The position numbers and the translations under genes are program-made. Source: Candidatus Poseidoniales archaeon (lineage in GTDB: Archaea > Thermoplasmatota > Poseidoniia > Poseidoniales > Poseidoniaceae). From it: a stretch of 64,000 nucleotides of DNA. How positions within the stretch are numbered: position 1 is the stretch's first letter; each line of letters begins with the position of its first letter. Below are positions 9,753 to 55,506 of this stretch, piece after piece. The notes below the pieces were generated by a model that made no database searches, had not been told where the DNA came from, and worked only from the letters and a program-made list of their open reading frames with translations. The stretch is taken from NCBI GenBank assembly GCA_003602645.1, contig QQSI01000040.1:4152-68151 (forward strand). Reading direction: 5' to 3'.

Positions 9753-10906
9753 TGTTCCAACTCCTCAAACTCTAACGAGGCTGAATTGATACAGTATCTC
9801 ATTCCGCCGTGTTCTCTTGGTCCATCGTTGAAAATATGTCCAAGATGTGCGTCGCATTGAGAACATCGAACTTCTGTTCGAATCATGCCATGCGTGCGAT
9901 CTTCAATCTGATGAATGGACGCCCTTGCATGCTCACTATGGAAGGATGGCCATCCGCAACCTGAATCAAATTTCATGGCTGATGTGAACAGGTGATGACC
10001 GCAACAAATGCAATTGTAGTTTCCACTTCTTTTCTCATTCCAATACGCGCCTGTAAACGCCCTTTCAGTGCCACTTTCTCTCGTGACATGGTATTGCAAT
10101 TGAGTTAATTTTTCCTTGTAGTATGCATCTTTGTGCTTTTGTTCTGTTTCTAAAGCAGCAGCCAAAACAATCTCCCACGGTTCAATGTATTCAATTGGAT
10201 CCACCAAATCAAGTGCGTTAAAGGCAAGAATTCGCTCCACGTCAGAACCGCTTCGCCCTGAACTTCTGCCATCCTGATCGGGGTTGTACGATGTGATGGT
10301 GTTTTCAAAAACTCGGTCGAAATTTAAACCAATTTTGTCACATGAAGCCAAAGCGTCTTTCAAAATGGTCACTTTATCGCCGTCGATGTATGGTAAGTGG
10401 AAGGATACGGTATGGCTGTCCCAGTTTCCAACTGCAAAAGCGTGTTCAAGGGCATGATAAAATTCTGGACGGCAATCGGGGTAGATGGCATGATCGCCTG
10501 AATGCACTCCTAAGGCAATTTCGACATTCGCCTTTTCTCGCTTGGCCACTGAAAGGGCGTATCCGTAGAGAATTGATGCAAAAATAGCGTTTCTATTTGG
10601 AACGACAGTGGATTTCATTTGTTCTTCTTCGTAGTGGCCTTCAGGAACCTTGATGCCTTCATTGATCAAGGACGATTCGAACAAGGTCATCGCTGAAGTT
10701 AAATCGACAATGTGGTGTTCAACGTAGAATCCTTTGTCCTGCAAGTATGCAATGTTGTTTGATGCTCTGGTCAACTCAACGCTGTGCTTTTGGCCGTAAT
10801 TATAGGAAATACAGCTTACATTTTTCCCCTCAGCCAAGGCGTTCAAGAGCAAAGAAGTAGAGTCCATCCCACCTGAAAGTGCCATGACAGTATGCTCAGC
10901 CATCAA
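9749..10906 (-). CDS. queC: QueC (7-cyano-7-deazaguanine synthase)-like domain fused to MsrB (methionine-R-sulfoxide reductase)
   Basis: The N-terminal region has the PP-loop ALSGGMDSTS, plus PNRNAIF and YPDCRPEF (QueC). Residues from about 262 to 385 (YHVTRESGTERAFTGAYWN, CICCGHHLF, GCGWPSF, CSQCDAHLGHIFNDGP, RYCINS) form a complete MsrB with both CxxC pairs and the catalytic Cys. Confidence 0.85.
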   Translation of the reverse strand: MMAEHTVMALSGGMDSTSLLLNALAEGKNVSCISYNYGQKHSVELTRASNNIAYLQDKGFYVEHHIVDLTSAMTLFESSLINEGIKVPEGHYEEEQMKSTVVPNRNAIFASILYGYALSVAKREKANVEIALGVHSGDHAIYPDCRPEFYHALEHAFAVGNWDSHTVSFHLPYIDGDKVTILKDALASCDKIGLNFDRVFENTITSYNPDQDGRSSGRSGSDVERILAFNALDLVDPIEYIEPWEIVLAAALETEQKHKDAYYKEKLTQLQYHVTRESGTERAFTGAYWNEKRSGNYNCICCGHHLFTSAMKFDSGCGWPSFHSEHARASIHQIEDRTHGMIRTEVRCSQCDAHLGHIFNDGPREHGGMRYCINSASLEFEELEQ

Positions 10907-23718: not shown

Positions 23719-25611
23719 TCACTCCACGAACATGTCTTCCTGGTAGCCCGTGATGATATCCCCTGTACCATCTTCCTCGATTGTCACGGTTTCGTCTTCG
23801 TCATCGAACTCTATGATTGTTCCAAAGACCTCCTCGTCCTCAAGTGTAAGACCGATGTGTGAGCCAATATCGATTTCTCCTTCCCCTTCATCATCCTCAT
23901 CTTCCTCAGGTTCATCTGACTCGTCATGAGATTCATCATCCAACTCTTCATCTTCGAAATCCTCTTCGAGAGCCTCTTCCATTTCTTCTTCGAGGTCCCC
24001 ATCATCATCATTATCTTCAGATTCGGACGAAGCATCTGCTTGATCGTCTTGGACTTCCTTCATTGCCTTAGCGCGTGCACGCCAGCTAGGCATGAGCGCT
24101 AGATGCATGTAAAGTGAACCAGCTAATCCTGCTGCGCCAAGTACCATAAACAAAATACCGTCCCAATAGAAACCAGCAGGCATCGAACTTGCTTCACCAC
24201 TTAGGGGCGTTAACGAGTTCTTACAGTCGCCTTCCTGAATTGCTGGATCACAAGGGTAAGAATCACCTTCGGCAAGACCCGCAGGAGGGAGTAAATTGCC
24301 TTTGGTCTCTAGCTCAATTGGGCCGCCAGTTCCATCGACAATGACACCGAATCCATTCACGACCCACACGGCAATGAAAAGGCCAAATGCTAAGTGAATC
24401 AACGGCCATACATATTCGTTCCATTGCTTCCCCATCATGCGCTTTTGCATATCAGTTGGGAAGGGTTTGGTTGGTTTGCTGATGACAGCTCTTTCATCCG
24501 TTGCTTCATCGGCATCTGCCAAATTTTCTAAAGCTGTGATGAATTCTATCATGTCCACCGTTCGATCGTTGTCATCATCAACTTCAGACAGGAATTCTTC
24601 GATATCCTTGTGACCGATTTCATCATCAAAGAGCTTGTTCAATTCGTTCATTAGTTCGACAACATCGACGCGCCCATTGGCATCTCTGTCAATGCTCTTG
24701 AAGAATTGAGCTGGCGAGGTTTCCATTTCATCCATGGCATCAGCGATTTTGCGAATGAGCGAAACCTCCTCGATGCTTTCTTCTTCTGAAGGATCTTCAT
24801 CGGACGCCTCATCTTCGTCCATTGATTCTTCGCCGTTTTCCTCTTCTGAATCCAATGTTTCCTCTTCGACCACCTCTTCGTGTTCTGATTCAGAATCTTC
24901 AGATTCGTCATCATCCTGGGAATCTTGGATTTCCTCTTCATCAAGGTTTGATTCTGTTTGAACTTCTTCGTCAGGTTCGCCTTCATCCTCTGTTTCAATT
25001 TCCTCTTCTGGATCATCATCCACTTGGATTTCGGGATCGGTTTCCACCTCATCGTCTGAGTCATTGTCTTCTTCGTTTTCCGAATCTTCTTCCATTGCAT
25101 CCTCATCTTCAGAGGTTGTTGAATGATCCATTTTTTCGTCTTCTGGCAAGTCATCTCCGGTGATGGTTTTATGCAACTCAGCAAGGTCAATCCTTCCATC
25201 TCCGTCAGCATCGATTGTCTCAATGAGGCGCTCAACTTGAGATGGTGGCAAATCTGCTAGATTGAGGCTCAACAGTCCTGACTTCAATTCACTTGAGTCG
25301 ATTTGACCATCGCCATCCTTGTCAAATTTATTGAACAGCATCGGAATTGTAATCCCTGTTGTTGCCAACCAATTGCGCAGCACATCAACGACGTCGTCGG
25401 CGATAAAAACTGTACCACAGTGGCTACATTTTGTGGAATCTAAAGGCACGAGGCCACCGCATGCACCGCACTCTCCGAGGGCTTCATCGGATACACCGGA
25501 AAAAGAAATATTACATTCAGGACATTTGGTTGAATCGAGGGGAATTACTGCTCTGCAAGCACCACATTCTCCTGTAGCAACTTCTTCAGTCTTGTCTTCG
25601 GACATGGGCAC
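23719..25611 (-). CDS. Membrane protein with a double zinc ribbon, two EF-hand pairs, poly-acidic tracts and two TM helices
   Basis: Zinc ribbons: CGACRAVIPLDSTKCPECN and CGACGGLVPLDSTKCSHCG. Four canonical 12-residue EF loops: DKDGDGQIDSSE, DADGDGRIDLAE, DRDANGRVDVVE, DDDNDRTVDMIE. TM helices lie at about residues 400-425 and 483-507. The D/E tracts are more than 60% acidic. Confidence 0.8.
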   Translation of the reverse strand: MPMSEDKTEEVATGECGACRAVIPLDSTKCPECNISFSGVSDEALGECGACGGLVPLDSTKCSHCGTVFIADDVVDVLRNWLATTGITIPMLFNKFDKDGDGQIDSSELKSGLLSLNLADLPPSQVERLIETIDADGDGRIDLAELHKTITGDDLPEDEKMDHSTTSEDEDAMEEDSENEEDNDSDDEVETDPEIQVDDDPEEEIETEDEGEPDEEVQTESNLDEEEIQDSQDDDESEDSESEHEEVVEEETLDSEEENGEESMDEDEASDEDPSEEESIEEVSLIRKIADAMDEMETSPAQFFKSIDRDANGRVDVVELMNELNKLFDDEIGHKDIEEFLSEVDDDNDRTVDMIEFITALENLADADEATDERAVISKPTKPFPTDMQKRMMGKQWNEYVWPLIHLAFGLFIAVWVVNGFGVIVDGTGGPIELETKGNLLPPAGLAEGDSYPCDPAIQEGDCKNSLTPLSGEASSMPAGFYWDGILFMVLGAAGLAGSLYMHLALMPSWRARAKAMKEVQDDQADASSESEDNDDDGDLEEEMEEALEEDFEDEELDDESHDESDEPEEDEDDEGEGEIDIGSHIGLTLEDEEVFGTIIEFDDEDETVTIEEDGTGDIITGYQEDMFVE

Positions 25612-43269: not shown

Positions 43270-44184
43270 TCACTGAGGTGAGGCTTCTTTGGAAGCCTCC
43301 TCTTTCTTATCGTCTTTCCCTGTGGTGGTTTCTTTGGTGGCATCCTTAGGTGAATCCTCTTGTGCGAGGGCTGCTTCCTTCTTTTCAGCACGCCTCTTAG
43401 CAGCTTTTTCTTGGCGCTTTTGGAAGGAGTCACCGAAGTTTGCCATGCTTTCAAGCCGTAGGGCGATGCCAGAGAGTTCCTCATCCTCTGCACGGACATA
43501 TTTGACAAGGTAGGCGCCAAACAACATGTCGTAGAGGCCTTGATTTTGGTCGCTGTTTTTCTTGAATCTGCCATCAATAATGCGGATTGAGAACAAGATG
43601 ATACCCAGGACAAGCAATCCGATGGCAACTGGGTTGGCTTTACCTGCCGTGTCGAAGAGGTTACCCATGTTGATAATGACCAATGATAATCCTACAAGCG
43701 CCATCAGTCCTACCGAATTGACAAGGAATCCATGCAATGGGTTAGGTTTGGCATCTGCTGATGTGATGTAGCGCGTTCTTGACATGAAATTTCCAAGTGT
43801 TCGACCGGTCATAATCGGGATAACAAATACATTTGTGATGATCATCAGGAGTGCTCCAATAGCGGGTATGGTAGGGGTCGAGCCCATGACTGAGAGGAAA
43901 ATGGCTCCAAAGAGGACACCGAAATTCCAGATGAAATTCATCAACCAGGCTAAAAATCTAGAGTTTTGTGTGGCAATTTCATACCCTTCAGGGAGTCCAG
44001 CAGTGCTTAATTTGGGTTTCTTAACACGTGGTGCACGAGGGGTTTTTTCAGCCTTTGCGGCCTTGACAGGTTTTGCGACAGCAGTGGCTTTTTTGGGTAT
44101 AGCTTTGGCCACTGCCTTTTTGGGCGCTTCCTTTGTTTCACTGCCTGCTGTGTTTGCCTTGTCTAGTAGTCCCATTGTGGTCAC
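43270..44184 (-). CDS. RDD-family-like membrane protein with Lys-rich termini
   Basis: Three to four TM helices, with IMTGRTLGNFMSRTRYI and LYDMLFGAYLV resembling RDD-domain motifs. The N- and C-termini are KA/KE-rich. The start overlaps the upstream stop by 4 nt. Confidence 0.5.
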   Translation of the reverse strand: MTTMGLLDKANTAGSETKEAPKKAVAKAIPKKATAVAKPVKAAKAEKTPRAPRVKKPKLSTAGLPEGYEIATQNSRFLAWLMNFIWNFGVLFGAIFLSVMGSTPTIPAIGALLMIITNVFVIPIMTGRTLGNFMSRTRYITSADAKPNPLHGFLVNSVGLMALVGLSLVIINMGNLFDTAGKANPVAIGLLVLGIILFSIRIIDGRFKKNSDQNQGLYDMLFGAYLVKYVRAEDEELSGIALRLESMANFGDSFQKRQEKAAKRRAEKKEAALAQEDSPKDATKETTTGKDDKKEEASKEASPQ

Positions 44185-45182
44185 TCACCCTTGTACTGTG
44201 CGCCAATTGCGCTGTAAATTTGGAAGTTCTCAGAAGCAACAAAGGCATCGATGTCGGCTTCGGCCATGTTGCCAAGTTGGCCGTCAACGATGGTAAAGAA
44301 GGCCGTCCTCATTTCGTCACTGGAGTTTTGAGGATCACTTCCGACGGCTTCGTAGATTGCAAAATCTTCACTGCCCACGAACGTGGTGACGACCTCTTCC
44401 GGCAAATTTGATCCAAGGAGATCATCCACGATTGCGACAAAAGTGACAAACATGTCATCAGTTTGCTCTGTTTCGTTGGATATTGGTTGTGCAGTGGTCA
44501 CGTCAGCGGTGTCCCCAGCAATCATGGCTTGAAGTGATTTACGTTCGGCCATTAATGATTCCAAAACTGGACGAAGTTCTGCAAGAACTTGAGCGTCCCC
44601 GGCAACCTTTGCTGCTTGATATTCAGGTTTCAATGAACGCAATTCATCTTCAATCATGGTTAACTGACTTTGGAGTTCATTTTCAGCAGTCTCTGATTCA
44701 AGGAGTTCGACGACTGGAGCATCTCGAACCTCTGATATTTTCCCTTCATGTTCTTGCTTGCGTAAAACGATGATGTCCCTGTCGAGTGCATGACCAAATC
44801 GGTCGGCATATCGGTCCAATAGTGAACCAGCGTCCGCAGAGGAAATTCGATCAATGTGCCCATAAATTTGTGGGAGTGGTTTATCCGATCGCTTGGCCCA
44901 CAGGTCGCCATATTTGTCAGACACTGGAGTTTTAGGTGTTGCAGCGAGACTGTCATTGTTCCAAACTGAAGCCTCTGCAGGCACTGGAAGGGGTGCGTCT
45001 GGAAGCGGAAGGCTTGGTTCAGCAGCCGGTGCGGGTGGCAATGGAAGGGGGGGGTTGTCCGGAGAGGCGCCTGGCGGTGCTGGCAGAGGTGGCATACCGG
45101 GCAATGGCGGCAATGGTAGACCTGGTGTTGGTGCGGCTGGAGCCTTGTTTTTCTTGCCTTTCCTCAGACCCATGTGGTTCAC
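44181..45182 (-). CDS. Polyproline / coiled-coil / tandem-repeat protein, unknown function
   Basis: Residues about 8-75 are PPLP-type polyproline (PLPPLPGMPPLPAPPG...PPLPLPP). The middle is a heptad-like acidic helix region. The C-terminus carries two copies of an approximately 45-aa repeat (..FVTFVAIVDDLLG....TFVGSEDFAIYEAVG / ..TAFFTIVDGQLG....AFVASENFQIYSAIG). Confidence 0.55.
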   Translation of the reverse strand: MNHMGLRKGKKNKAPAAPTPGLPLPPLPGMPPLPAPPGASPDNPPLPLPPAPAAEPSLPLPDAPLPVPAEASVWNNDSLAATPKTPVSDKYGDLWAKRSDKPLPQIYGHIDRISSADAGSLLDRYADRFGHALDRDIIVLRKQEHEGKISEVRDAPVVELLESETAENELQSQLTMIEDELRSLKPEYQAAKVAGDAQVLAELRPVLESLMAERKSLQAMIAGDTADVTTAQPISNETEQTDDMFVTFVAIVDDLLGSNLPEEVVTTFVGSEDFAIYEAVGSDPQNSSDEMRTAFFTIVDGQLGNMAEADIDAFVASENFQIYSAIGAQYKGE

Positions 45183-46525: not shown

Positions 46526-46735
46526 TTATTCGTTGGTCATCCAGAAGCGTTCTTCTGCTTCACCGACCGCGGTCGCGGTGTCAGCACCGGTTGTTTCGAC
46601 GTAGTGCTCCCAACACATGTAGAACTTACCAACGGCCATAGCGTTGCCAAAAGTGAGGCGAATGCCGCAGGACTCGCAACGAGGGCCAATTTCACCGTTT
46701 GGTGCTTGGGCGAGAGTGATGTGTTCGTGTGGCAT
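46526..46735 (-). CDS. Small CxxC...CxxH protein (69 aa), unknown function
   Basis: MPHEHITLAQAPNGEIGPRCESCGIRLTFGNAMAVGKFYMCWEHY... has a possible Zn site. Start set at ATG 46735; the track start at 46816 would overlap the upstream gene. Confidence 0.4.
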   Translation of the reverse strand: MPHEHITLAQAPNGEIGPRCESCGIRLTFGNAMAVGKFYMCWEHYVETTGADTATAVGEAEERFWMTNE

Positions 46736-46794: not shown

Positions 46795-47277
46795 TTACCA
46801 ACTGGTCTCTTCCCATTGGGGTGATTTACACCATTGGAGCAAATCGAGAGCGACCTCGCAAGATTCTGCAACTTCTGGATTTGGATCGTTGAGGTGGGCT
46901 TTGAGCACCGGCAAGACGCTCAGATCACCAATCGCTCCCATTGCTTCGGCCGCTTCGTGTCGGACCATGACATGCTCCTTATCGTCGCTGAGCCTTTCAA
47001 TGAGAGTAGGGAGGGCGGTTGGGTTTTGCATTTGACCAAGGACATAGGCGAGTTCATGACGCAGCAAAGCACTGCTTGAAAAAAATGCACTACACAATGC
47101 TAGGCAAGCTTCGTCCGACCCGTCGTTGCGAAGGGAGAACACTGTTCGCATTCGCTGAAACATTGGTGCGTTTTCATCCATTAAAAGAGCAGACCACTCT
47201 TTGAGTGTACCCACATTCTGTGGAGGGGCGGGGTCAACCGAACCATATTGGCTCACTCCAGGTGCCCGTTCAGTCAT
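46795..47277 (-). CDS. Deoxyhypusine hydroxylase (DOHH)-like HEAT-repeat protein, half length
   Basis: SVDPAPP, MFQRMRTVFSLRN, SALLRHELAYVLGQMQ, VMVRHEAAEAMGAIG and VAESCEVALD are collinear with the C-terminal half of eukaryotic DOHH. Two His-Glu pairs are present. The ORF opens immediately after the upstream stop (GTG 47289; ATG 47277). Confidence 0.75.
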   Translation of the reverse strand: MTERAPGVSQYGSVDPAPPQNVGTLKEWSALLMDENAPMFQRMRTVFSLRNDGSDEACLALCSAFFSSSALLRHELAYVLGQMQNPTALPTLIERLSDDKEHVMVRHEAAEAMGAIGDLSVLPVLKAHLNDPNPEVAESCEVALDLLQWCKSPQWEETSW

Positions 47278-47289
47278 ACACCTCACCAC

Positions 47290-48210
47290 TCAGGACTCAT
47301 CGGAGCCAATAAATTGCATGTCTCCGGGCTTGAACGCTGGATCAATGAGTCCGATTTCTTGGCCTTCTGTGATAAATTGCCGGATGGAAGCGCGTCCTTC
47401 TTTCTTGTAATCGATGGTGCGGTCATTGACGTACATGCTCACAAATTCCTTATTGGTGTCATCATCAATGCCTCTGCCCCACTTTTTGGCAAATTCAAGT
47501 GCTTCAGCAGGTGATTTCAGAGCATACTCAATGCTCATTTTGGTGTACTTAGTGATGTCTTCCATTGCTTGTGCTCCAAGATCTCGACGGACGACATTGC
47601 CTCCAAGCGGCATAGGCCAACCGCCGGTTCGTTCGTTCCACCAAACACCAAGATCAATATGCACGTGAAGGTCGTGATCAACATAGGTCAGTTGGCCTTC
47701 GTGAATGATGAGACCACTCAAGTAGGTTCCATCGAGGATGCGTGGGATGATTTCATCGAAGGGAACAACGGCAACTTCGCAGTCACCCCATGCCAGACGC
47801 AGCCCCATGTAGGCACTTGTTTTGAGGCCAGGGACGGCGATGATGTTGCTTCGGACATCTGATTCGCTTGCGCCCTGCATTGAAACAACCATTGGACCAT
47901 ACCCCTCACCCATCGAGGCACCACAATTCATCAAAGCATAATTCTCGGAAATTTCTGGGAATGCGTGGATGGAGACTGCTGAAACTTCAAGGTCGCAATT
48001 CATTGCGCGGTGGTTGAGTGTTTCGATGTCTTGCAGTTCGTGTACGAAGTGGTAGCCAGGAGTTGGAAAGGCACCAGTGGTCATTGCGTGGAACATAAAG
48101 GCGTCATCTGGGTCCGGAGAGTGTCCGATTCGAACAATTTTGTTGCCGTCTTCATCAAGGGGTAATTGAGCCACCATGATGCCTCGACTGGCGCGCCCTT
48201 GATGAACCAA
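47290..48210 (-). CDS. MqnA/MqnD-family protein (MqnD-like, futalosine menaquinone pathway)
   Basis: VRIGHSPDPDDAFMFHAM, ELQDIETLN, EVSAVSIHAF, Y.LMNCGASMGEGYGPMVV and GLIIHEGQLTY fit the MqnD/VitK2-biosynthesis periplasmic-binding-fold pattern. Start may be the internal ATG 48177. Confidence 0.7.
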   Translation of the reverse strand: MVHQGRASRGIMVAQLPLDEDGNKIVRIGHSPDPDDAFMFHAMTTGAFPTPGYHFVHELQDIETLNHRAMNCDLEVSAVSIHAFPEISENYALMNCGASMGEGYGPMVVSMQGASESDVRSNIIAVPGLKTSAYMGLRLAWGDCEVAVVPFDEIIPRILDGTYLSGLIIHEGQLTYVDHDLHVHIDLGVWWNERTGGWPMPLGGNVVRRDLGAQAMEDITKYTKMSIEYALKSPAEALEFAKKWGRGIDDDTNKEFVSMYVNDRTIDYKKEGRASIRQFITEGQEIGLIDPAFKPGDMQFIGSDES

Positions 48211-48345
48211 CCGCTAATTTTTCCTGATTTCTTCTTTTCCTGCATTGGTGATGCATTCACCGATTTGTTTTCAGTGTTGATTGATTCATCTGGGTCCAAG
48301 GGGAGTCGTGGTTTGGGCGTCAAGGCAACTGGTTGCATTGCATTT

Positions 48346-50514
48346 ATGCTGTTGGTGATGCTCTCCACGCCAGTGGCCTCGAGCGCGTCAACCATTTCGT
48401 TCACAGGCACCACGACCGTTGAAACCACCGACGGATCCTCGGCCTTAGCTATTGATTCGGACATGAACTACCTCGCAAGCGGTTACGATGACCACATGGC
48501 CATCATGTGGTTGGATAATCTATCGCTGATTGATATCATTGAAGTGGATCGACCCGTGGAATCACTGGAGTTTTCACCGGATGGCTCTCTCTTGGCTATT
48601 GCCATATCAGGGTCGGAAACAAAGGAGGACACCATTCAATTATTTGATGTCGAATCCATGACTCTGAGCCAAAAGCAACAATCGGCTAACGCTCGCCCAG
48701 TGGACATTGCCTGGTCGCCAGATGGGTTGCTACTTGCGGTTCCAAACGCGAATAATGGTATTGATTTAATCCGTATTTCTGATATGGAAATAGAGCGGAG
48801 TTTGACTGGCGAACACAATACAGACGTGACTTGTATTGGATTCACAAGCAACGGTGGGCATGTTATCAGCGGTGATGAATCGGGGCGAATGGTGATGTGG
48901 AACGTCGATGGTACTCCGACAGCAAAAAAATGGGAGTTTGGAAATGAACTCAAAACATGTTCTTTTGACCCAACCGACACACGCATCGCATCGCTTACGG
49001 TCGACGGTGCATTGAACACGCTTTCTTTTTCCGGTGGTGATTTACAAAGCGCTCAATTTACCTCAGGAGGTGGCTTGAGTTGGTCGTATGAAGGGACCTA
49101 CATACATTTGACAGAAAATGGCGATGCTCCACGATTGCTGACATTGGATGCCTCCACATTTGAACAAGTGGAATCGACCTACATGGCTCACCAAGTGTTG
49201 GATATTGCCACGATCGAAAATCAATACGGTTTGGTTCAAGAATTCTATGCAGCAACCAACACCCTCCATTTGGCGAGGTATGGTAGCCATGCTGTCCCCG
49301 AAGGAATGGGGGTTGCTGGAGCAGACCTCGATGGTGATGGCATACCGGATTCACTCGACGATGATGATGACGGTGATGCGATCTTTGATCAATGGGATAC
49401 GTATTGCGGTGAGGTTGAAACAGATTGTGCACGCTCCCCCCATGAAGACCACATTCGTTCGGTTTCGATTCAATTGAACGCCACACATATGACGATTAAT
49501 GACAGGATCAAATTGGACATCGTCCTATCCTCTTCAATCAGAAATATGTCGAGAATTTCTATTATTGAGGATGCTCAGCTCAGTGGGAGCGAAACCGAAT
49601 TGTTTGCCCAATCCGTTTGTGCTAACCATGATGAGAGCAGAATCCTTGAACAATGGAAAGATACACTGATGCTTTCAGAAGGCCAATTGGAAGGTGGAAT
49701 AGTAACCTGTGCCGTCAGCGAAGGCATGACGCTCAGAGCACAAAATGATTTCAAAACTCACATCGGTGTTGAATACACGATTTCGTTCAACCTTTCCTCT
49801 GCACCGATTTTCCCGTTCACAGTTGCATTCGAAGAGCAACCTATCGCCACTGATGCCTCATTATCCCATCTTGCAGAAATGCATCCTATTCATGTGACGC
49901 TTTCTGCAAAGGGAGCGAATGATGTCGAATTGTCTCCATGGTGGACCACAGAATCTCCTTTGGAACTCACTTTGGAGGAACGCGTGGTCAAAGAACCAAC
50001 CTTGACACAGAAAGGAGTGGATTTATTCGCGAATTATCCAATTCTTTTTGTCTTCGTTCTTGCCTTCCTTGCTGGAGGCATCGTGCTCGTATTGAGGACA
50101 AAAAACACAATGGGTATGGATCTCAACATCTTTGACGAAGAGGATGATGAGCCGAGTCGCGATGAAGACGAGGATGAATCAAGCACCTCAATCGAAGAGG
50201 AAGCTTCACTTGAAGTCCCTCTTGCCGAGCCGGAACAAGCAAAACCCGTCGAATCAAAAACGAATGTAAGGGACACAACGACCGACCATCCAGTTCAGAC
50301 CAAAAAACGCAGGAAAGTGAGCCAACGCACCTCCAGAGAGGGCCCGATTACAACAGTGAAGAGAAAGCGCTTGGATGGTGGAGAAGAACCTCCTGTTCAG
50401 AAAAGAGCAACCAGCAAAAAGCGAATTGTCAAACCCAACACGTCGACAAAGCGGAAGACAAGAAGGGTCGTAACTCAATCCGACAAAGAAGAAGACACTT
50501 CACCAGGCGAATGA
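48346..50514 (+). CDS. Anchored surface protein with WD40-like beta-propeller repeats and an Asp-rich Ca-binding-type motif
   Basis: Signal-like MLLVMLSTPVASSAS. The start is uncertain: the track ATG 48166 overlaps the convergent... divergent gene on the other strand, and TTG 48313 is possible. WD-like repeats (SLEFSPDGSLLA, DIAWSPDGLLLA, CIGFTSNGGHVISGDESGRMVMWN). DLDGDGIPDSLDDDDDGDAIFDQWD. C-terminal TM PILFVFVLAFLAGGIVLVL, then an acidic and a Lys/Arg-rich tail. Confidence 0.7.
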   Translation: MLLVMLSTPVASSASTISFTGTTTVETTDGSSALAIDSDMNYLASGYDDHMAIMWLDNLSLIDIIEVDRPVESLEFSPDGSLLAIAISGSETKEDTIQLFDVESMTLSQKQQSANARPVDIAWSPDGLLLAVPNANNGIDLIRISDMEIERSLTGEHNTDVTCIGFTSNGGHVISGDESGRMVMWNVDGTPTAKKWEFGNELKTCSFDPTDTRIASLTVDGALNTLSFSGGDLQSAQFTSGGGLSWSYEGTYIHLTENGDAPRLLTLDASTFEQVESTYMAHQVLDIATIENQYGLVQEFYAATNTLHLARYGSHAVPEGMGVAGADLDGDGIPDSLDDDDDGDAIFDQWDTYCGEVETDCARSPHEDHIRSVSIQLNATHMTINDRIKLDIVLSSSIRNMSRISIIEDAQLSGSETELFAQSVCANHDESRILEQWKDTLMLSEGQLEGGIVTCAVSEGMTLRAQNDFKTHIGVEYTISFNLSSAPIFPFTVAFEEQPIATDASLSHLAEMHPIHVTLSAKGANDVELSPWWTTESPLELTLEERVVKEPTLTQKGVDLFANYPILFVFVLAFLAGGIVLVLRTKNTMGMDLNIFDEEDDEPSRDEDEDESSTSIEEEASLEVPLAEPEQAKPVESKTNVRDTTTDHPVQTKKRRKVSQRTSREGPITTVKRKRLDGGEEPPVQKRATSKKRIVKPNTSTKRKTRRVVTQSDKEEDTSPGE

Positions 50515-51306
50515 TGAGCCTTCTGTGAGATCGCAAGCATCGACCAAGAACTGTTCTAGCCCTTGTATGTGTTCTGGGTCCAACCGATTGAAAACTTCAC
50601 CAAAGTATCGATCCAATCGATCGTATTTGAGGTCTGATTTCGACATTGACCACTCGATAACTTCCTTCCTTGTTTTTGGGTCGGATTCAAAATGTGAAAG
50701 GCGATGAAGCAAAGCTTCCTGTGCGGCTTGCACATCCTCTATTGGGGTGTCTCTTCTGGCTGCAAAAACTCCGAAAACCATTGGTTTTTGCGTTCGATTG
50801 AGCCATGCTTGTCCAAGATCGAGTTGAACTCGTTCTGGTTGTTTCTTGGCTTCTTCCAAGGCACGGTCTCCAATGAGAAGGGCACCATCGCATTCGGAGA
50901 GCATGGTGTCCAAATCTGGGCCCATCAACTGTGTTTTTGGTTCCAAACGCTCTTGTTTTAGAATGTACTTCAGTAGAGCAACAGACGTCATCGAATCTGT
51001 GGGTAATGCGATGCTTTGCATTTTTGCCAACGGCAGATCACCGAACAGCAAAACGCTACCAACTTCCCCTTTGCTGCAGATCCCTATTTCTGGAACCAGA
51101 ACAAGTTTGTCGGCATGTCGGGCGTAATCTGCTGCTGGAATGGGGGCAAGGACACAATCCTTTCTCAGGAGGTGTCCGGTGAGCCATGAAGGGGGAGCGG
51201 GTAGAACTTCCCATTCATCATCGAGGCCGTAAAAAAGTGGGTCGCAATTTAGGAAAGCAACGCGGCCGATGATGCGCTTCCACCGAGGGGTTTGAGCCAC
51301 TTGCAT
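50500..51306 (-). CDS. mqnA: Chorismate dehydratase MqnA-like
   Basis: RVAFLNCDPLFYGL, APIPAADYA and ALLIGDRALE match the MqnA pattern (..YlN..P...gl). Confidence 0.7.
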   Translation of the reverse strand: MQVAQTPRWKRIIGRVAFLNCDPLFYGLDDEWEVLPAPPSWLTGHLLRKDCVLAPIPAADYARHADKLVLVPEIGICSKGEVGSVLLFGDLPLAKMQSIALPTDSMTSVALLKYILKQERLEPKTQLMGPDLDTMLSECDGALLIGDRALEEAKKQPERVQLDLGQAWLNRTQKPMVFGVFAARRDTPIEDVQAAQEALLHRLSHFESDPKTRKEVIEWSMSKSDLKYDRLDRYFGEVFNRLDPEHIQGLEQFLVDACDLTEGSSFAW

Positions 51307-51314
51307 CCGTCCAT

Positions 51315-52529
51315 CTACTCCTGTATAACTTGCAGTCTTTTTCGGCGCTTTGGCTCAGGCGCAACATAGATTTCAAATCGCTCATACGTCGTGTTTCTTT
51401 GAATTGGAACACACCCCGCATCTTTGATTAAGCGAGACAACTGAAATCGATCATGGTCCAACGGTGTTGTCGAACCTGCCAAATGCATGATTGATTCTTT
51501 TTGAACGGTCCCGTCAATATCATCAGCGCCAAATTGGAGGGCAAGTTCAGCGAGTTCATCACCAATGTTCATTCTGTAAGCTTTGATGTGGGGAATTGAA
51601 TGGAGCATAAGTCGAGATACTGCTATGGTTCTTAGGATTTCACTCCCTGTCGCAAGTTGCGCTTCAGGAAGGCGAGTGTCATCTGGAAGGAAGGGATAGG
51701 GCACAAAGCATTGAAATCCGCCGGTTTCTGAGGCAAGTTCGCGCAATGAAATCATGTGCTCCACTCGTTGTTGGAGTGTTTCAATGGTCCCAAAGAGCAT
51801 GGTGCAATTGGTTGGAAGCCCGATTTCGTGGGCAGATCTGTGGATGTCGAGGTATTCTTGGGAACTTTCTTTTCCGTTGCAGATAATGGCTCTCACATCA
51901 TCGTCGAGTATTTCCGCGCCCCCTCCAGGCAAAGACCCTAGGCCGGCGTCCTTCATTCGTTGGAGTGTCTCGGTGTACGAAAGGTTCGAAAGTTGGGAAA
52001 TATGTTTGATTTCAACAGCCGTCAATGCCTTGATCGTGATGTGAGGGAACTGTGCTTTTGTGGCACGGAAAAGTTGTTCATAATGTTCAATACCCCAATC
52101 TGGATGAAGGCCTCCTACTGAATGAACCTCATCCACAAATGGAGCATACTGGGCGAGATCTTCGAGGTAAGCGTCGATTTCCATAGCGTACGCATCCTGT
52201 GCCTTTTTGCTTCTTCGGAAAGCGCAGAATTTGCAGGCTAATACGCAGACATTGGTTTGGTTCACGTGGACATTGCTGTTGAAGAATGCCTTGTCATCAA
52301 AGCGCGCTGTCCGTACCTCATGCGCTAACCGCCCAACCTCACTGAGGTTTGGGTGATTGTAGAGGGTGAGACCGTCTTCCAATGAGAGGGATTCACCGCG
52401 AATCAATTTGTCTACCAAGGGTGAGAGAGGTTTGCTCCATTGGGAACTTTGTAGAAGTGAATCTGTCAGGCGTTGTTGCCAATCTTGGTTTGAACCAGCG
52501 TCAAACCGCGATGATGTCCATCCTGACAT
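51315..52529 (-). CDS. Radical SAM enzyme of the MqnC/MqnE (futalosine pathway) / CofH-like family
   Basis: NQTNVCVLACKFCAFRR (CxxxCxxC). The surrounding TIM-barrel strings (GGLHPDW, TAVEI, GLGSLPGGGAEI, NCTMLFG) are typical of MqnC/MqnE. Start set at ATG 52529 to avoid overlapping the ATPase. Confidence 0.7.
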   Translation of the reverse strand: MSGWTSSRFDAGSNQDWQQRLTDSLLQSSQWSKPLSPLVDKLIRGESLSLEDGLTLYNHPNLSEVGRLAHEVRTARFDDKAFFNSNVHVNQTNVCVLACKFCAFRRSKKAQDAYAMEIDAYLEDLAQYAPFVDEVHSVGGLHPDWGIEHYEQLFRATKAQFPHITIKALTAVEIKHISQLSNLSYTETLQRMKDAGLGSLPGGGAEILDDDVRAIICNGKESSQEYLDIHRSAHEIGLPTNCTMLFGTIETLQQRVEHMISLRELASETGGFQCFVPYPFLPDDTRLPEAQLATGSEILRTIAVSRLMLHSIPHIKAYRMNIGDELAELALQFGADDIDGTVQKESIMHLAGSTTPLDHDRFQLSRLIKDAGCVPIQRNTTYERFEIYVAPEPKRRKRLQVIQE

Positions 52530-52584
52530 ACATACCCCTATCACGATGCGTTCTTGAAGATGTGGATGAATCCATAGCGTAACA

Positions 52585-55506
52585 TCAACGAGAACCCGGT
52601 GTGAAGAAATTCGAATTGACGATGAATTTTCTGAACTCGTCAATCACGAAAACAGAGCCTGAGACGACAAAAATAATCGCCCAATCTGTTGCTGATAAGA
52701 CCGTTGTCGACATCAAGTCACCCACGTGTAAACTGGTGAGTGGTATCCTATGTTCTGCAAGTTGAACAAAGAACATCAATAATCCGAGTGAGAATAAAAA
52801 GGCGTAATTAATCCACTTGTTTGAAAACAAGCCGAGCTTGAACGCACTTTCTCGATTGCTTCGGCAATTCATCACGTTGAACAGTTGATAGACAATAAAC
52901 ACTGAGAACGTCATGGTTTGAGCATGTTGGAACAATTCCTCATTGTTTGTTTCAGAAGCTTGTATTGCAGCAAGTTGTTCTTGAGTGGCCTCGTCTCCCA
53001 TTCGAATACCAAGTTCACATTGGGCGACATCAAAGGGAGCTTCAGCTTCAGTTTGGAGGGGGTGGATGTCACATGTACCAACTCCGCCACCTGCAAGGAA
53101 GAAGACGATGAGCGTCCCAGTGACCATCACAGCACCAAGATAGAAGATCAGTGTGATGTCCCTGAAATTAGGCATGCCTTCATTGACCGGACGCGGTGGT
53201 TGGTTCATGACATCACCATGGTTTTTCTCAACACCTAAGGCAACGGCAGGTGGACCATCCATCAGAATGTTGATGACGAGAATTTGTGTTGCTGTCAAAG
53301 GTAAATTCCAACCAAACAAAAAGGTGGAAATAATGATCAAGGCAACAGCTGCGACGTTGGTAGAGACCTGGTAGCGTACGAAATTTCGAATGTTTTGGTA
53401 GATTTTTCGTCCTTCTTCAACGGCATGAACAATGTTGGCGAAGTTATCATCTTGAAGCACCATGTCGGCAGCATCCTTGGCTACATCTGTACCAGCAATG
53501 CCCATTGCGATGCCGATGTTAGCTCGTGATAAGGCGGGGGCGTCATTGACCCCATCACCCGTCATGGCAACAATTTCACCTTGATCCTGTAGGGAAGAGA
53601 CGATGCGCATCTTCTGTTCTGGTGTGACCCTAGAAAAGATGGAAGCCTGACCGGATGCTTCGCTCAATTGTTGGTCGTCATAATCCGCCAATGCATTGCC
53701 GTTCACAGGAGGTATGCCACCTTCGGTGATGTTCAATTCACGGCCGATGGCTTCCGCAGTGTATTGTTGATCACCAGTGATCATTTTCACCCGGATTCCT
53801 GCGCGCTGACACACTTCAATGGCGTCTTTGACTTCCGCTCTAGGCGGGTCCATGATACCAACAAGGCCGAGGAAAATGAAACTTGATTCAACACTGTCGA
53901 TGTCCTCGATGTCTTCATCATCATCAAGGCGACGGGCGCAGAGGGCAATCACGCGCATGGCTTGGCCTGCCATGTCTTTGTTAGCAATTGAGGCCAGTTC
54001 AAAGTCAGTTTCCTCGATCGGAACAATTTCCCCATCCTTGATTTTCCATTTCACCAGAGAAACATATCCACCAGCTCCGCCTTTCGAAAAGACCCAGCGT
54101 TCGCCTTCATAATCGTGGATAACTGACATTCGCTTCCGATTGGTATCGAAAAAGAATTCATGGAGCCGCGAATGTCGTTGAGCGAATTTCTTCACATCCC
54201 CATTGATTTTCCACCCAAGAACTGCGCATGCTGAGTCTGTTGGATCGCCAAGTGCCTGCCATTGTCCATCAACTTTAGAGATTTGAGAATTGTGACATAG
54301 ACTCAAGCACGCAGCAGAAAGGCGGAAAGCAAGATCGCTTTGATATCCTGAAAGTTCTTCGCCAGTGACAATTTTTCCGTTATACGAAAGTTCACCCTTT
54401 GGTTTGAAACCTTCTCCGGAGATAGTGAATGTGCCATCCGTGGTGGTGAGTTGGCGTGCTGTCATCTGATTCTTTGTGAGTGTGCCAGTTTTGTCAGAGC
54501 AAATGACAGTTGTGGAGCCAAGCGTTTCAACAGCCTTCATTCGTCGAATGATTGCTTTGTGTTTAGCCATATTACGCATACCAAGGGCAAGCGTAATCAC
54601 AAGAATAATTGGCAATCCTTCTGGAACAATAGCCACGAAAATCGCGATGGCTACAATAAATTGTTCAACCGCAACCTCTCGCAAATCCGCTGTCGGGTCA
54701 CCATAAGCAATGATCATCTTGATGGCTACCATGAGTACCGCAACAACAAGCGCTACAATTCCAAGGAATTTGCCCAAGGATTCAAGTTTGTGCTCAAGGG
54801 GGGTTTTCGGTGACTCGGAGCCCACGATATCGCTTGCAATCCGTCCAAGTTCAGTGTTCATTCCTATGTTGACCACAATGCCAACAGCACGTCCAGTGGC
54901 TACACTGGTGCCCATGTAGGCCATGTTATTTCTGTCAGCGAGCAAAGCTTCGCTAGCAATTGGCGCGGTTGTTTTCTTAATGCTGTCAGATTCACCTGTC
55001 AGCGATGACTCATCAATTTTGCATTGATAGGATTCAACCACTCGTACATCCGCTGGCACATTGATGCCTTCCTCGAGTTTGACCACATCCCCGGGAACCA
55101 GGAGGGGGGTTGGCACCTCTTGTTCGACACCATCACGAACAACAATACAGCTTGATACGGCCATTTGTTTGAGTGAATCCATCGCCTGTTCCGCCTGACC
55201 TTCTTGCCAAAATCCGAAAACGGCATTTGCAGTGAGGACTGAAAAAATGAAAATTGCGTCTCCAGGTTGGTCTGGGTGAATGGAAAGGGCAACGAGTGCA
55301 GCACCAATGAGAAGGTAATTGAGTGGATCGTTATATTGGGAGAGAAAACGCAACCAGGCAGGGGTTTTCTCAGGTTCTTGGAGTTTGTTTTCACCATATT
55401 TGGCGCGTCGAACTTCAACCTCGGAAGCACTCAACCCTTCAGGCTGGGTCTCGAGCTTGAGATATGTGTCTTCAGATGTCACATCGTGCCATTGTTGTGT
55501 TGCCAT
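52585..55506 (-). CDS. P-type ATPase, type IIA (Ca2+-transporting, SERCA/PMR1-like)
   Basis: TGES, PEGLP, ICSDKTGTLT, KGAPE-like, MITGD, TGDGVNDAPAL and 10-TM organisation. ATG 55506; the track's upstream start is a TTG at 55518. Confidence 0.9.
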   Translation of the reverse strand: MATQQWHDVTSEDTYLKLETQPEGLSASEVEVRRAKYGENKLQEPEKTPAWLRFLSQYNDPLNYLLIGAALVALSIHPDQPGDAIFIFSVLTANAVFGFWQEGQAEQAMDSLKQMAVSSCIVVRDGVEQEVPTPLLVPGDVVKLEEGINVPADVRVVESYQCKIDESSLTGESDSIKKTTAPIASEALLADRNNMAYMGTSVATGRAVGIVVNIGMNTELGRIASDIVGSESPKTPLEHKLESLGKFLGIVALVVAVLMVAIKMIIAYGDPTADLREVAVEQFIVAIAIFVAIVPEGLPIILVITLALGMRNMAKHKAIIRRMKAVETLGSTTVICSDKTGTLTKNQMTARQLTTTDGTFTISGEGFKPKGELSYNGKIVTGEELSGYQSDLAFRLSAACLSLCHNSQISKVDGQWQALGDPTDSACAVLGWKINGDVKKFAQRHSRLHEFFFDTNRKRMSVIHDYEGERWVFSKGGAGGYVSLVKWKIKDGEIVPIEETDFELASIANKDMAGQAMRVIALCARRLDDDEDIEDIDSVESSFIFLGLVGIMDPPRAEVKDAIEVCQRAGIRVKMITGDQQYTAEAIGRELNITEGGIPPVNGNALADYDDQQLSEASGQASIFSRVTPEQKMRIVSSLQDQGEIVAMTGDGVNDAPALSRANIGIAMGIAGTDVAKDAADMVLQDDNFANIVHAVEEGRKIYQNIRNFVRYQVSTNVAAVALIIISTFLFGWNLPLTATQILVINILMDGPPAVALGVEKNHGDVMNQPPRPVNEGMPNFRDITLIFYLGAVMVTGTLIVFFLAGGGVGTCDIHPLQTEAEAPFDVAQCELGIRMGDEATQEQLAAIQASETNNEELFQHAQTMTFSVFIVYQLFNVMNCRSNRESAFKLGLFSNKWINYAFLFSLGLLMFFVQLAEHRIPLTSLHVGDLMSTTVLSATDWAIIFVVSGSVFVIDEFRKFIVNSNFFTPGSR

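What the first reader, a model, noticed from the sequence alone, without database searches (positions are those of the whole stretch)
46795..47289. Half-length deoxyhypusine hydroxylase (DOHH) homologue in an archaeal context
The 160-164-aa ORF reads from end to end like the C-terminal half of eukaryotic DOHH as I remember it. Human: ...SVDPAPP...LFERYRAMFALRN...SALFRHEVGYVLGQLQ...NPMVRHECAEALGAI...VRESCEVALD. Here: SVDPAPP (residues 17-23), MFQRMRTVFSLRN, SALLRHELAYVLGQMQ, VMVRHEAAEAMGAIG and VAESCEVALD. It keeps two His-Glu pairs (H78-E79, H111-E112). Full-length DOHH uses four such pairs, two from each of two symmetric HEAT halves, to hold a di-iron centre. Archaea modify aIF5A to deoxyhypusine or hypusine. 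To my knowledge no archaeal hydroxylase has been identified, and DOHH is regarded as eukaryote-specific. A single half could work as a homodimer, resembling a pre-duplication state. It could instead be a truncated acquisition from a eukaryote; the inter-half linker motif at its N-terminus favours that reading. The ORF opens with zero spacer after the stop of the MqnD-like gene and is flanked by clearly archaeal genes, so a chimeric assembly seems unlikely.
Basis: partly seen in the sequence, partly recalled or inferred. Interest (0 to 1): 0.7.

Follow-up and report, generated by a model that had tools for sequence, protein, structure and literature searches.

The report
Half-size deoxyhypusine hydroxylase in marine archaea
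Marine Group II archaea carry a conserved gene for exactly one half of the enzyme that eukaryotes use to finish the hypusine modification of translation factor 5A. It is the first clear archaeal relative of that enzyme that I could find described, and it probably works as a symmetric pair.

Summary
The ORF is real (46795..47289, minus strand; likely start ATG 47277, 160 aa). It is a specific homologue of deoxyhypusine hydroxylase (DOHH), not a generic HEAT protein: human DOHH gives E 9.5e-70, against 1e-32 for the best synthetic HEAT array. It is neither an assembly artefact nor a frameshifted full-length gene. Among GTDB species representatives, 388 stretches encode a relative. The best 80 are all Poseidoniales (Marine Group II). 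Each has one 159-162-aa gene directly after an MqnA/MqnD-family gene, and dN/dS is about 0.07. Both His-Glu pairs, the Gly-Gln substrate-site residues and the N-terminal YGSVDPAPP tail are invariant in 45 orthologues. The monomer model overlays one half of human DOHH (rmsd 1.3 Å). A head-to-tail tandem overlays the whole enzyme (TM 0.91). In cross-validated profiles the 127-residue core is equidistant from eukaryotic N and C halves (C minus N: -1.3±3.3 bits, against +33.9 for C halves and -29.2 for N halves). A recent truncated eukaryotic acquisition is therefore disfavoured. Most likely it is a homodimeric di-iron DOHH acting on deoxyhypusinated aIF5A. The activity, the dimer and the substrate are all inferred, not shown.

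The parts
46795..47277 (-). Coding sequence of the half-length DOHH (160 aa from ATG 47277, stop included). The maximal ORF runs to the GTG at 47289 (164 aa).
   Evidence: Orthologues are 159-162 aa and begin at the equivalent Met. Human DOHH 4d4z gives E 9.5e-70. The AF2 model has pLDDT 92.3 and shows 8 helices, i.e. 4 HEAT hairpins.
47278..47289 (-). 12-nt spacer GTGGTGAGGTGT between the stop of the upstream PF02621 gene and the ATG. It contains a Shine-Dalgarno-like GAGGTG.
   Evidence: Sequence read. The gap between the MqnD stop and the DOHH ATG is -8 to +12 nt in 71 of 79 Poseidoniales loci with an MqnD1 match, which suggests co-transcription and translational coupling (inference).
47221..47253 (-). 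N-terminal tail motif S13-QYGSVDPAP-P23 (164-aa numbering).
   Evidence: S, G, S, D, P, A and P are invariant and Y, V and the final P nearly invariant in 45 orthologues. The motif [VIL]DP[AST]P is found in the inter-half linker of 103 of 133 full-length DOHHs and in 0 of 133 of their N-terminal extensions. The monomer model aligns to 4d4z over 148 columns for a 160-residue query, longer than the 127-residue core, so part of the tail probably aligns too; the aligned residue range was not read.
47053..47058 (-). First His-Glu pair, H78-E79 (equivalent to human H207-E208 and H56-E57).
   Evidence: Alignment to 4d4z. Invariant in 45 orthologues and at least 90% conserved in the MGII, N-half and C-half groups. 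Roles come from PMC9117371: His binds iron, Glu binds the deoxyhypusine side chain.
47032..47037 (-). G85-Q86 of the YVLGQ motif. G85 is equivalent to human G214, a substrate-binding residue.
   Evidence: Role from PMC9117371.
46954..46959 (-). Second His-Glu pair, H111-E112 (equivalent to human H240-E241 and H89-E90), within the invariant MVRHEAAEA.
   Evidence: Both residues anchor iron in human DOHH (PMC9117371).
47290..48210 (-). Upstream MqnA/MqnD-family gene (PF02621, menaquinone synthesis by the futalosine route). It is a context gene and the probable operon partner.
   Evidence: Pfam E 6.9e-61. A PF02621 (MqnD1) match lies within 1.5 kb upstream on the same strand in 79 of 80 species-level loci. 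It remains adjacent in the rearranged 159-aa subgroup.
46526..46735 (-). Downstream conserved 69-aa CxxC...CxxH/C protein of unknown function (context gene).
   Evidence: Present in 79 of 80 loci. No Pfam or NCBIfam hit.

Best explanation
The gene encodes a functional single-domain deoxyhypusine hydroxylase. It has one four-HEAT-repeat module instead of the two fused modules found in eukaryotes.

Proposed mechanism:
- Each chain offers H78, H111 and E112 to bind one iron.
- Two chains pair across a two-fold axis in the same arrangement as the N and C halves of eukaryotic DOHH. This builds the O2-activating di-iron centre at their interface.
- E79 and G85 from both chains line the pocket that takes up the deoxyhypusine side chain of archaeal IF5A.
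- The dimer hydroxylates deoxyhypusine to hypusine.

The gene is expressed from the promoter of the preceding mqnA/D gene. It is an order-wide, vertically inherited trait of the aerobic, surface-ocean Poseidoniales.

In evolutionary terms its core is as far from the eukaryotic C half as from the N half. It therefore separated from the eukaryotic enzyme around or before the internal duplication, which predates the last eukaryotic common ancestor. It is not a recent capture of a eukaryotic C-terminal fragment.

What is shown: the homology, the conservation, the fold, the half length and the single copy per locus. What is inferred: iron binding, dimerisation, the substrate and the timing.
For: DOHH-specific similarity:
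- phmmer against PDB gives 237 bits (E 9.5e-70) to human DOHH. The best non-DOHH HEAT protein gives 116 bits spread over 7-8 weak stretches.
- Pfam sees only generic HEAT_2 at 77 bits.
- Cross-validated profiles of eukaryotic DOHH halves score the MGII proteins at 162-163 bits. That is as high as true halves score against their own profile.

Catalytic residues:
- Both His-Glu pairs, G85-Q86 and M108 are invariant in 45 orthologues of 64-91% identity.
- They are shared at 90% or more with both eukaryotic halves.
- They map onto the residues that mutagenesis and the crystal structure show to hold the di-iron centre and the substrate (PMC9117371).

Selection:
- dN/dS is about 0.07 against the closest orthologues.
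- GC content matches the neighbouring genes.

Architecture:
- 388 relatives were found among GTDB species representatives, and the best 80 are all Poseidoniales, including chromosome CM001443.1.
- Each locus has exactly one DOHH-like HSP, and the ORFs are 159-162 aa.
- The one MAG with two loci is a mixed bin, not a case of paralogues.

Fold:
- The monomer model has pLDDT 92.3. It overlays 4d4z at TMq 0.89, TMt 0.50 and rmsd 1.3 Å over 148 columns.
- The tandem of two copies has pTM 0.89. It overlays the whole of 4d4z at TMt 0.91 and rmsd 2.5 Å over 285 columns, whereas continuous HEAT solenoids reach TM 0.36 at most.

Deep divergence:
- The C-profile minus N-profile score is -1.3±3.3 bits for MGII halves, +33.9±8.3 for C halves and -29.2±8.9 for N halves.
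- Consensus site patterns are M=N≠C 20, M=C≠N 13 and N=C≠M 16, and they stay stable in subsets chosen to be least like MGII.
- The NJ tree places MGII at the node joining the N clade and the C clade.
Against: - No biochemical data exist. Poseidoniales are uncultured.
- The tandem model is a covalent proxy, and AlphaFold was trained on 4d4z, so it is not independent evidence for a dimer. I could not read coordinates to measure ligand distances.
- aIF5A, DHS and spermidine synthesis were not located in this genome. None lies in the 64-kb window. Their presence rests on statements in the literature that DHS occurs in all archaeal genomes.
- The tight and persistent coupling to an mqn gene could point to another substrate.
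- A divergent second half elsewhere in the genome is not excluded. The scans were pattern-based and the lists were truncated.
- Bootstrap support for the three-clade topology is weak (M 0.64, N 0.17, C 0.17).
- The eukaryotic sample was chosen by similarity to the query.
- The tail motif is shared only with the linker/C-half side.
Confidence: 0.6

Rival explanations
1. Truncated eukaryotic acquisition. An ancestor of Poseidoniales captured a eukaryotic DOHH gene, or only its 3' part starting in the linker, and kept just the linker plus the C half. The N-like residues in the core would be later reversions, favoured because one chain must now play both roles. The function (homodimeric DOHH) would be the same as in the best explanation. 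Only the origin differs.
For: - The YGSVDPAPP tail is found in the inter-half linker of 103 of 133 full-length DOHHs and never at their N-termini.
- Among prokaryotes the gene is seen only in one archaeal order, with eukaryotes as the only other holders.
- Per-protein counts lean slightly towards C (M=C≠N 21.4 against M=N≠C 17.3).
- The whole-ORF phmmer score is higher for the C half (128 against 109 bits).
Against: - Over the core the MGII proteins lack the C-specific signal. The score difference is -1.3 bits, against +33.9 for true C halves, and the ranges do not overlap.
- 20 consensus sites are shared with N but not C, interleaved along the sequence with 13 shared with C but not N.
- MGII is not nested in the C clade in the NJ tree.
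- No eukaryotic C half stands out as a donor. The maximum mean identity is 0.50, against a typical C-to-C nearest-neighbour identity of 0.575.
Confidence: 0.25
2. Different substrate. The protein is a di-iron HEAT oxygenase recruited to another job, for example modification of a quinone or another amine-bearing molecule. This would be linked to the menaquinone (futalosine) genes among which it sits.
For: - A PF02621 (MqnA/D) match lies just upstream in 79 of 80 loci, and the gap is -8 to +12 nt in most of them.
- It keeps that position even where PriS and the small ORF have been inverted away.
- mqnE/C-like and second mqnA/D genes lie nearby.
Against: - From my own knowledge of the pathway, the futalosine route needs no O2-dependent hydroxylation.
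- Core identity to eukaryotic halves averages 42-45% (up to 50% for the closest C halves), with every residue implicated in deoxyhypusine binding kept (E79, E112, G85).
- A promoter-less acquired gene that depends on the mqn promoter would also stay glued to it.
- The same conserved block contains the unrelated primase gene.
Confidence: 0.1
3. Generic HEAT/PBS-lyase-like scaffold with no oxygenase activity, whose resemblance to DOHH is only repeat-family similarity.
For: Pfam and NCBIfam return only generic HEAT_2, HEAT_PBS, NblB and CpcE hits. NCBI names the orthologues 'HEAT repeat domain-containing protein'.
Against: - DOHH scores 237 bits, against 33 bits or less per stretch for alphaRep proteins, which carry RRAA where DOHH has RHEA.
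- The His-Glu pairs are invariant.
- The structural match is rmsd 1.3 Å and 47% identity to 4d4z, against TM 0.68 and 27% identity for alphaReps.
- All NCBIfam lyase hits fall far below their cut-offs (21 bits against 300).
Confidence: 0.02

Closest known systems
Eukaryotic deoxyhypusine hydroxylase (human DOHH, PDB 4D4Z/4D50; yeast Lia1; S. pombe Mmd1)
   Same: HEAT-hairpin fold. His-Glu motifs in the same helices, plus the YVLGQ and MVRHEAAEA motifs. Core identity to eukaryotic halves averages 42-45% (47% to human DOHH in the structural alignment). The linker-type YGSVDPAPP motif precedes the core. The modelled pair of domains overlays the whole enzyme.
   Different: It has one four-repeat module (160 aa) instead of two fused modules (about 300 aa), so there are two His-Glu pairs per chain, not four. 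It must oligomerise to form a di-iron site. It is archaeal and encoded in an operon-like pair with an mqn gene. The core is equidistant from the N and C halves.
PBS-lyase-type HEAT repeat proteins (Pfam HEAT_PBS/HEAT_2; CpcE/NblB; E. coli YibA; Mth187; synthetic alphaRep proteins)
   Same: The same repeat family and helix-hairpin geometry (TM about 0.67, 25-29% identity).
   Different: They have no His-Glu pairs and no YGSVDPAPP tail, and their scores are far lower. They form continuous solenoids rather than a dyad of two four-repeat modules.
Homodimeric retroviral aspartic proteases compared with two-lobed pepsins (an analogy from general knowledge, not homology)
   Same: A single-lobe protein forms its active site on a two-fold axis between identical chains. 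Its relatives carry the two lobes fused in one chain after internal duplication.
   Different: An unrelated fold and unrelated chemistry. It is offered only as a model for how a symmetric dimer can bind one asymmetric substrate.

Membership tests
Deoxyhypusine hydroxylase (DOHH, EC 1.14.99.29) | Sequence similarity specific to DOHH rather than to generic HEAT/PBS repeats | tested here: met
   Human DOHH gives E 9.5e-70 (237 bits), against 1e-32 for the best alphaRep. The MGII proteins score 162-163 bits against held-out eukaryotic N- and C-half profiles. The nearest 50%-identity cluster representatives are two-stretch proteins of about 300 aa. The one whose contig I inspected (P0283) has eukaryotic neighbour genes, and named members carry eukprot or JGI 'deoxyhypusine monooxygenase' labels.
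Deoxyhypusine hydroxylase (DOHH, EC 1.14.99.29) | HEAT-repeat (helical hairpin) fold of a DOHH domain | tested here: met
   The AF2 model has pLDDT 92.3 with 8 helices. Foldseek gives 4d4z at TMq 0.89 and rmsd 1.3 Å over 148 columns.
Deoxyhypusine hydroxylase (DOHH, EC 1.14.99.29) | [quoted passage not shown] | tested here: not met
   There are only two per chain (H78-E79, H111-E112), both invariant. Four would exist only in a dimer.
Deoxyhypusine hydroxylase (DOHH, EC 1.14.99.29) | Eight HEAT repeats in two pseudo-symmetric domains joined by a linker | tested here: not met
   It has a single four-repeat domain of 159-162 aa in most of the 80 loci, with one HSP per locus and no room upstream. 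A tandem of two copies is modelled in the DOHH arrangement (TMt 0.91), but that is only a proxy.
Deoxyhypusine hydroxylase (DOHH, EC 1.14.99.29) | Residues that bind the deoxyhypusine side chain (Glu of the His-Glu motifs; Gly of the LGQ motif) | tested here: met
   E79, E112 and G85 are invariant. Their roles are taken from PMC9117371.
Deoxyhypusine hydroxylase (DOHH, EC 1.14.99.29) | Di-iron centre, O2-dependent hydroxylation of deoxyhypusine on IF5A | not testable with these tools
   This needs recombinant protein, iron analysis, spectroscopy and an activity assay.
Deoxyhypusine hydroxylase (DOHH, EC 1.14.99.29) | Substrate pathway present in the same genome (aIF5A with the modifiable Lys, deoxyhypusine synthase) | not tested
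   Neither is in the 64-kb window. The literature states that DHS is found in all archaeal genomes. I could not fetch the rest of an MGII genome.
PBS-lyase HEAT-like repeat proteins (CpcE/NblB type) | Score above the curated family cut-offs for lyase or NblB equivalogs | tested here: not met
   NblB scores 21.4 bits against a cut-off of 300, and CpcE 19.5 against 330.

The most novel reading that the evidence does not exclude
The Poseidoniales protein is a surviving representative of the pre-duplication form of DOHH. That form would be a tail-bearing, single-domain subunit that makes a perfectly symmetric di-iron site as a homodimer. On this reading, the hypusine hydroxylase either arose in archaea or was exchanged between a planktonic archaeal lineage and the eukaryotic stem before the last eukaryotic common ancestor. 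The eukaryotic enzyme would then be its tandem-fused descendant, in which the second copy's tail became the inter-domain linker.
Probability: 0.35. Interest if true: 0.85.

Novelty: new variant of a known kind. Interest (0 to 1): 0.72.

Why it matters
- Papers on archaeal IF5A state that no DOHH homologue exists in any archaeal genome (PMC5178350, PMC7773846, PMC7432094). This gene family is a clear counter-example in one of the most abundant archaeal groups of the surface ocean. I found no paper linking hypusine or DOHH to Marine Group II.
- It predicts that these archaea make true hypusine by the O2-dependent eukaryotic route. It does not explain hypusine in Sulfolobus or in anaerobes.
- It offers a natural half-enzyme for studying how the pseudo-symmetric di-iron site and its unusually stable peroxo intermediate are built.
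- Because its core lies midway between the two eukaryotic halves, it bears directly on when and where DOHH arose and how it duplicated.

Tried and rejected
- Rooting the N/C/MGII tree with generic HEAT arrays. Only two stretches covered the core. They lack the His-Glu pairs and are too divergent, so I abandoned this.
- NJ bootstrapping. The point estimate gives three clades meeting at one node. Support is weak (M 0.64, N and C 0.17 each), so I relied on cross-validated profile scores and site patterns instead.
- A simple N/C recombinant (unequal crossing-over) origin. I rejected it because N-like and C-like states are interleaved rather than in blocks, and because the tail is at the N-terminus.
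- Tandem alignment of homologues for structure prediction. I used the tandem window sequence with single-length homologues instead.
- The AFDB50 fold search for non-MGII half-size relatives was unavailable.
- Search of the window for aIF5A (GKHG.AK), a second His-Glu ORF, DHS or polyamine genes found none.
- P0283, a full-length DOHH on a 135-kb contig, was checked as a possible prokaryotic full-length form. Its neighbours are eukaryotic.
- Two loci in one MAG were checked as possible paralogues. They come from a mixed bin.
- Literature. The term pairs hypusine with Marine Group II, DOHH with Poseidoniales, deoxyhypusine hydroxylase with Asgard, and deoxyhypusine with MGII returned no paper. 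Deoxyhypusine with Poseidoni- returned one unrelated paper.
- The supplements of two MGII genome papers contain no mention.
- Park et al. 2006 (PMC1324997) is not held.
Full report
**Observation**

The ORF exists exactly where stated: 46795..47289, minus strand, 164 aa from a GTG start. It carries every quoted motif at the quoted residues. Orthologues are 159-162 aa and begin at the Met encoded at 47277. The real gene is therefore most likely 46795..47277 (160 aa). A 12-nt spacer, GTGGTGAGGTGT, separates it from the stop codon of the upstream gene and contains a Shine-Dalgarno-like GAGGTG.

**Is it DOHH or a generic HEAT protein?**

- Pfam and NCBIfam have no DOHH-specific model. They return only HEAT_2 (77 bits), HEAT_PBS, and far sub-threshold NblB/CpcE hits.
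- Against all PDB sequences the top hit is human DOHH (4d4z) at E 9.5e-70. The query aligns to both halves: residues 144-286 at 128 bits and residues 18-139 at 109 bits.
- The next hits are synthetic alphaRep arrays at E 1e-32 or worse, made of many weak stretches that have RRAA where DOHH has RHEA.
- In a library of 1.84 billion cluster representatives, the nearest relatives are proteins of about 300 aa hit in two stretches, which is the full-length DOHH pattern. Named members carry eukprot or JGI 'deoxyhypusine monooxygenase' labels. The one long contig I inspected has eukaryotic neighbours such as Mak16, Sec1 and Pol delta subunit 4.
- I built profiles from 94 eukaryotic N halves and 94 C halves with two-fold cross-validation. 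The archaeal proteins score 162-163 bits against either profile, as well as true halves score against their own profile.

**Is it an artefact?**

No.

- The protein family search found 1817 relatives. The best 120 are almost all 157-177 aa. Those with names are from 'Candidatus Poseidoniaceae', 'Poseidonia sp.' or 'Euryarchaeota archaeon' MAGs. JGI's pipeline already labels several 'deoxyhypusine monooxygenase', while NCBI calls them 'HEAT repeat domain-containing protein'.
- A scan of one genome per GTDB species found 388 stretches encoding a relative. The best 80 are all Poseidoniales or unclassified euryarchaeal MAGs with the same synteny. They include the 2.06-Mb MG-II chromosome CM001443.1.
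- Every one of these 80 loci has exactly one DOHH-like HSP. A PF02621 gene lies within 1.5 kb upstream on the same strand in 79 of them. A small ORF and PriS lie downstream in 79.
- The gap from the upstream stop to the DOHH ATG is -8 to +12 nt in 71 of 79 loci. ORF lengths cluster at 159-162 aa.
- There is no room for a frameshifted N half.
- The one MAG with two loci carries two complete syntenic copies without nucleotide similarity. That is a mixed bin.
- GC and GC3 match the neighbouring genes.
- dN/dS against the closest orthologues is about 0.07, and synonymous sites are saturated beyond that.

The window itself is ordinary Poseidoniales chromosome. It encodes Kae1, Tsr3-like protein, MetRS, PriS, histidine-utilisation genes and transketolase.

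**Conservation of the catalytic apparatus**

In 45 orthologues of 64-91% identity, the invariant positions include:
- H78-E79 and H111-E112;
- the whole blocks LLRHE.AYVLGQMQN and MVRHEAAEA.GAIG;
- E139-S143-C144;
- most positions of the N-terminal tail SQYGSVDPAPP, with the rest at least 90% conserved.

H78, E79, G85, Q86, R110, H111, E112 and E115 are at least 90% conserved in the archaeal group and in both eukaryotic halves. According to the review PMC9117371, the His of all four motifs and the Glu of the second motif of each half anchor the di-iron centre. The four Glu and two Gly bind the deoxyhypusine side chain. All the equivalents are present here.

**Structure**

- The monomer model is confident (pLDDT 92.3, pTM 0.86) and has eight helices, i.e. 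four hairpins.
- It overlays one half of human DOHH at rmsd 1.3 Å over 148 columns with 47% identity (TMq 0.89, TMt 0.50). AlphaRep proteins reach TM about 0.68.
- As a proxy for a homodimer I modelled two copies head to tail. This gave pLDDT 88.7 and pTM 0.89, with low confidence only at the junction.
- The tandem model overlays the whole of 4d4z at TMt 0.91 and rmsd 2.5 Å over 285 columns. Continuous HEAT solenoids reach TM 0.36 at most.

This shows compatibility, not proof. The chains are covalently linked, AlphaFold has seen 4d4z, and I could not read coordinates.

**Which half is it?**

The tail. The motif [VIL]DP[AST]P occurs in the inter-half linker of 103 of 133 full-length DOHHs and in none of their N-terminal extensions. 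The tail really is on the linker/C-half side.

The core. Over the 127-residue core:
- Mean identity of the archaeal proteins is 0.452 to C halves and 0.421 to N halves. N and C halves share only 0.372 with each other.
- The cross-validated C-profile minus N-profile score is +33.9±8.3 bits for C halves (minimum 8.7) and -29.2±8.9 for N halves (maximum -12.3). It is -1.3±3.3 for the archaeal proteins (range -7.7 to +5.0).
- Consensus site patterns are M=N≠C 20, M=C≠N 13 and N=C≠M 16. The N-like states (P42, L76, M87, G121, E139, A141, W153) are interleaved with the C-like ones (F44, G68, R77, H106, S143, V146).
- The pattern holds when only the eukaryotic proteins least similar to the query are used.
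- The NJ tree puts the archaeal clade at the node that joins the N clade (94 sequences) and the C clade, with stems of 0.05-0.08. Bootstrap support is weak.
- No eukaryotic C half stands out as a donor.

The archaeal lineage therefore did not inherit the substitutions that define eukaryotic C halves. It separated near or before the internal duplication, which all eukaryotic DOHHs share. Two scenarios remain:
- a pre-duplication form whose tail became the linker after tandem fusion;
- a very early offshoot of the C half, or a later one that reverted under homodimer constraints.

I favour the first modestly. The data cannot root the three-way split.

**Mechanism proposed**

One chain can supply two His and one Glu, enough for one iron. 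A di-iron site needs two modules. With one copy per locus, an invariant sequence and a tandem model that reproduces the DOHH dyad, a symmetric homodimer with the di-iron centre on the two-fold axis is the simplest reading. It would hydroxylate deoxyhypusine on aIF5A using O2. That fits the lifestyle of MGII as surface-ocean, proteorhodopsin-bearing plankton (abstract of PMC6864105). Iron binding, dimerisation and the substrate are all inferences.

**Context and a rival**

The gene sits in a futalosine-pathway neighbourhood. This comprises an MqnE/MqnC-like radical SAM enzyme and two PF02621 MqnA/MqnD paralogues. In the most divergent subgroup (159 aa, 57% identity), PriS and the small ORF have been inverted away, yet the PF02621 gene still precedes the half-DOHH by 2 nt. 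This persistent coupling could mean a quinone-related role. However:
- from my own knowledge of the pathway, the futalosine route needs no oxygenase;
- the deoxyhypusine-binding residues are all kept;
- a promoter-less gene dependent on the mqn promoter would show the same persistence.

I give this rival about 0.1.

**Comparison with what is known**

It works like eukaryotic DOHH and is clearly homologous to it. It fails two defining architectural features of the family as described: eight HEAT repeats and four His-Glu motifs in one chain. It is best filed as a new single-domain variant of DOHH.

Papers from 2016 and 2020 state that no DOHH homologue has been identified in archaea, and that hypusine in some archaea, including anaerobes, remains unexplained. 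Five targeted full-text searches and two supplement searches found no description of this family. Automated KO-style labels do exist in JGI data. The find does not solve hypusine formation in Crenarchaeota or anaerobes.

**Limits**

- aIF5A and DHS were not located in an MGII genome.
- The 308 GTDB hits beyond the best 80 were not visible, so distribution outside Poseidoniales, and within both MGII families, is not established.
- A divergent second half elsewhere in the genome is not excluded.
- The eukaryotic sample was chosen by similarity to the query.

**Verdict**

Interest is 0.72. Novelty: new variant of a known kind.

Noticed in passing
window 46526..46735 (-): A 69-aa ORF (MPHEHITLAQAPNGEIGPRCxxCG.RLTFGNAM...CW.H/C.YVE.TGAD) with a CxxC...CxxH/C zinc-ribbon-like pattern. 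It lies between the half-DOHH and PriS in 79 of 80 Poseidoniales loci and has no Pfam or NCBIfam hit. Its function is unknown. A role with primase or as a redox partner is pure speculation.
   Followed up: partly
window 47290..48210, 50500..51306, 51315..52643 (all -); L087 7141-10486: A futalosine-pathway cluster: two PF02621 MqnA/MqnD paralogues and an MqnE/MqnC-like radical SAM enzyme (TIGR03700 at 420 bits, just under its cut-off). The half-DOHH stays directly downstream of one PF02621 gene even in a rearranged subgroup.
   Followed up: partly
window 48166..50514 (+): A 782-aa WD40 beta-propeller protein with a predicted membrane segment and a long charged C-terminal tail. It is inserted on the opposite strand between the two PF02621 genes. 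Among the 80 loci, 35 have WD40 immediately upstream of the PF02621 gene and 37 have the second PF02621 paralogue there instead.
   Followed up: partly
window 9749..10906 (-): A single ORF combining QueC (7-cyano-7-deazaguanine synthase) with a C-terminal SelR/MsrB methionine-sulfoxide reductase domain. It lies next to a radical-SAM (QueE-like) gene and a GTP cyclohydrolase I gene.
   Followed up: no
window 23719..25611 (-): A 630-aa protein with a clear EF-hand pair (E 9e-17), which is unusual for an archaeon. The rest of the protein has no Pfam match.
   Followed up: no
window 43270..45182 (-): Two adjacent proteins (304 and 333 aa) rich in Pro, Ala and Lys low-complexity sequence, without Pfam hits. 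Matches to the 333-aa protein lie just downstream of PriS in many Poseidoniales loci; both proteins match in L070 at 40-50% identity.
   Followed up: no
L056 and L070 (MAG CTOTU8138): One MAG carries two complete MqnD-DOHH-small ORF-PriS loci with no nucleotide similarity to each other. This indicates a mixed bin rather than paralogues.
   Followed up: yes
window 243..1052 (+): An FGE-sulfatase (formylglycine-generating enzyme-like) domain protein at the window edge. No sulfatase was seen among the ORFs scanned.
   Followed up: no
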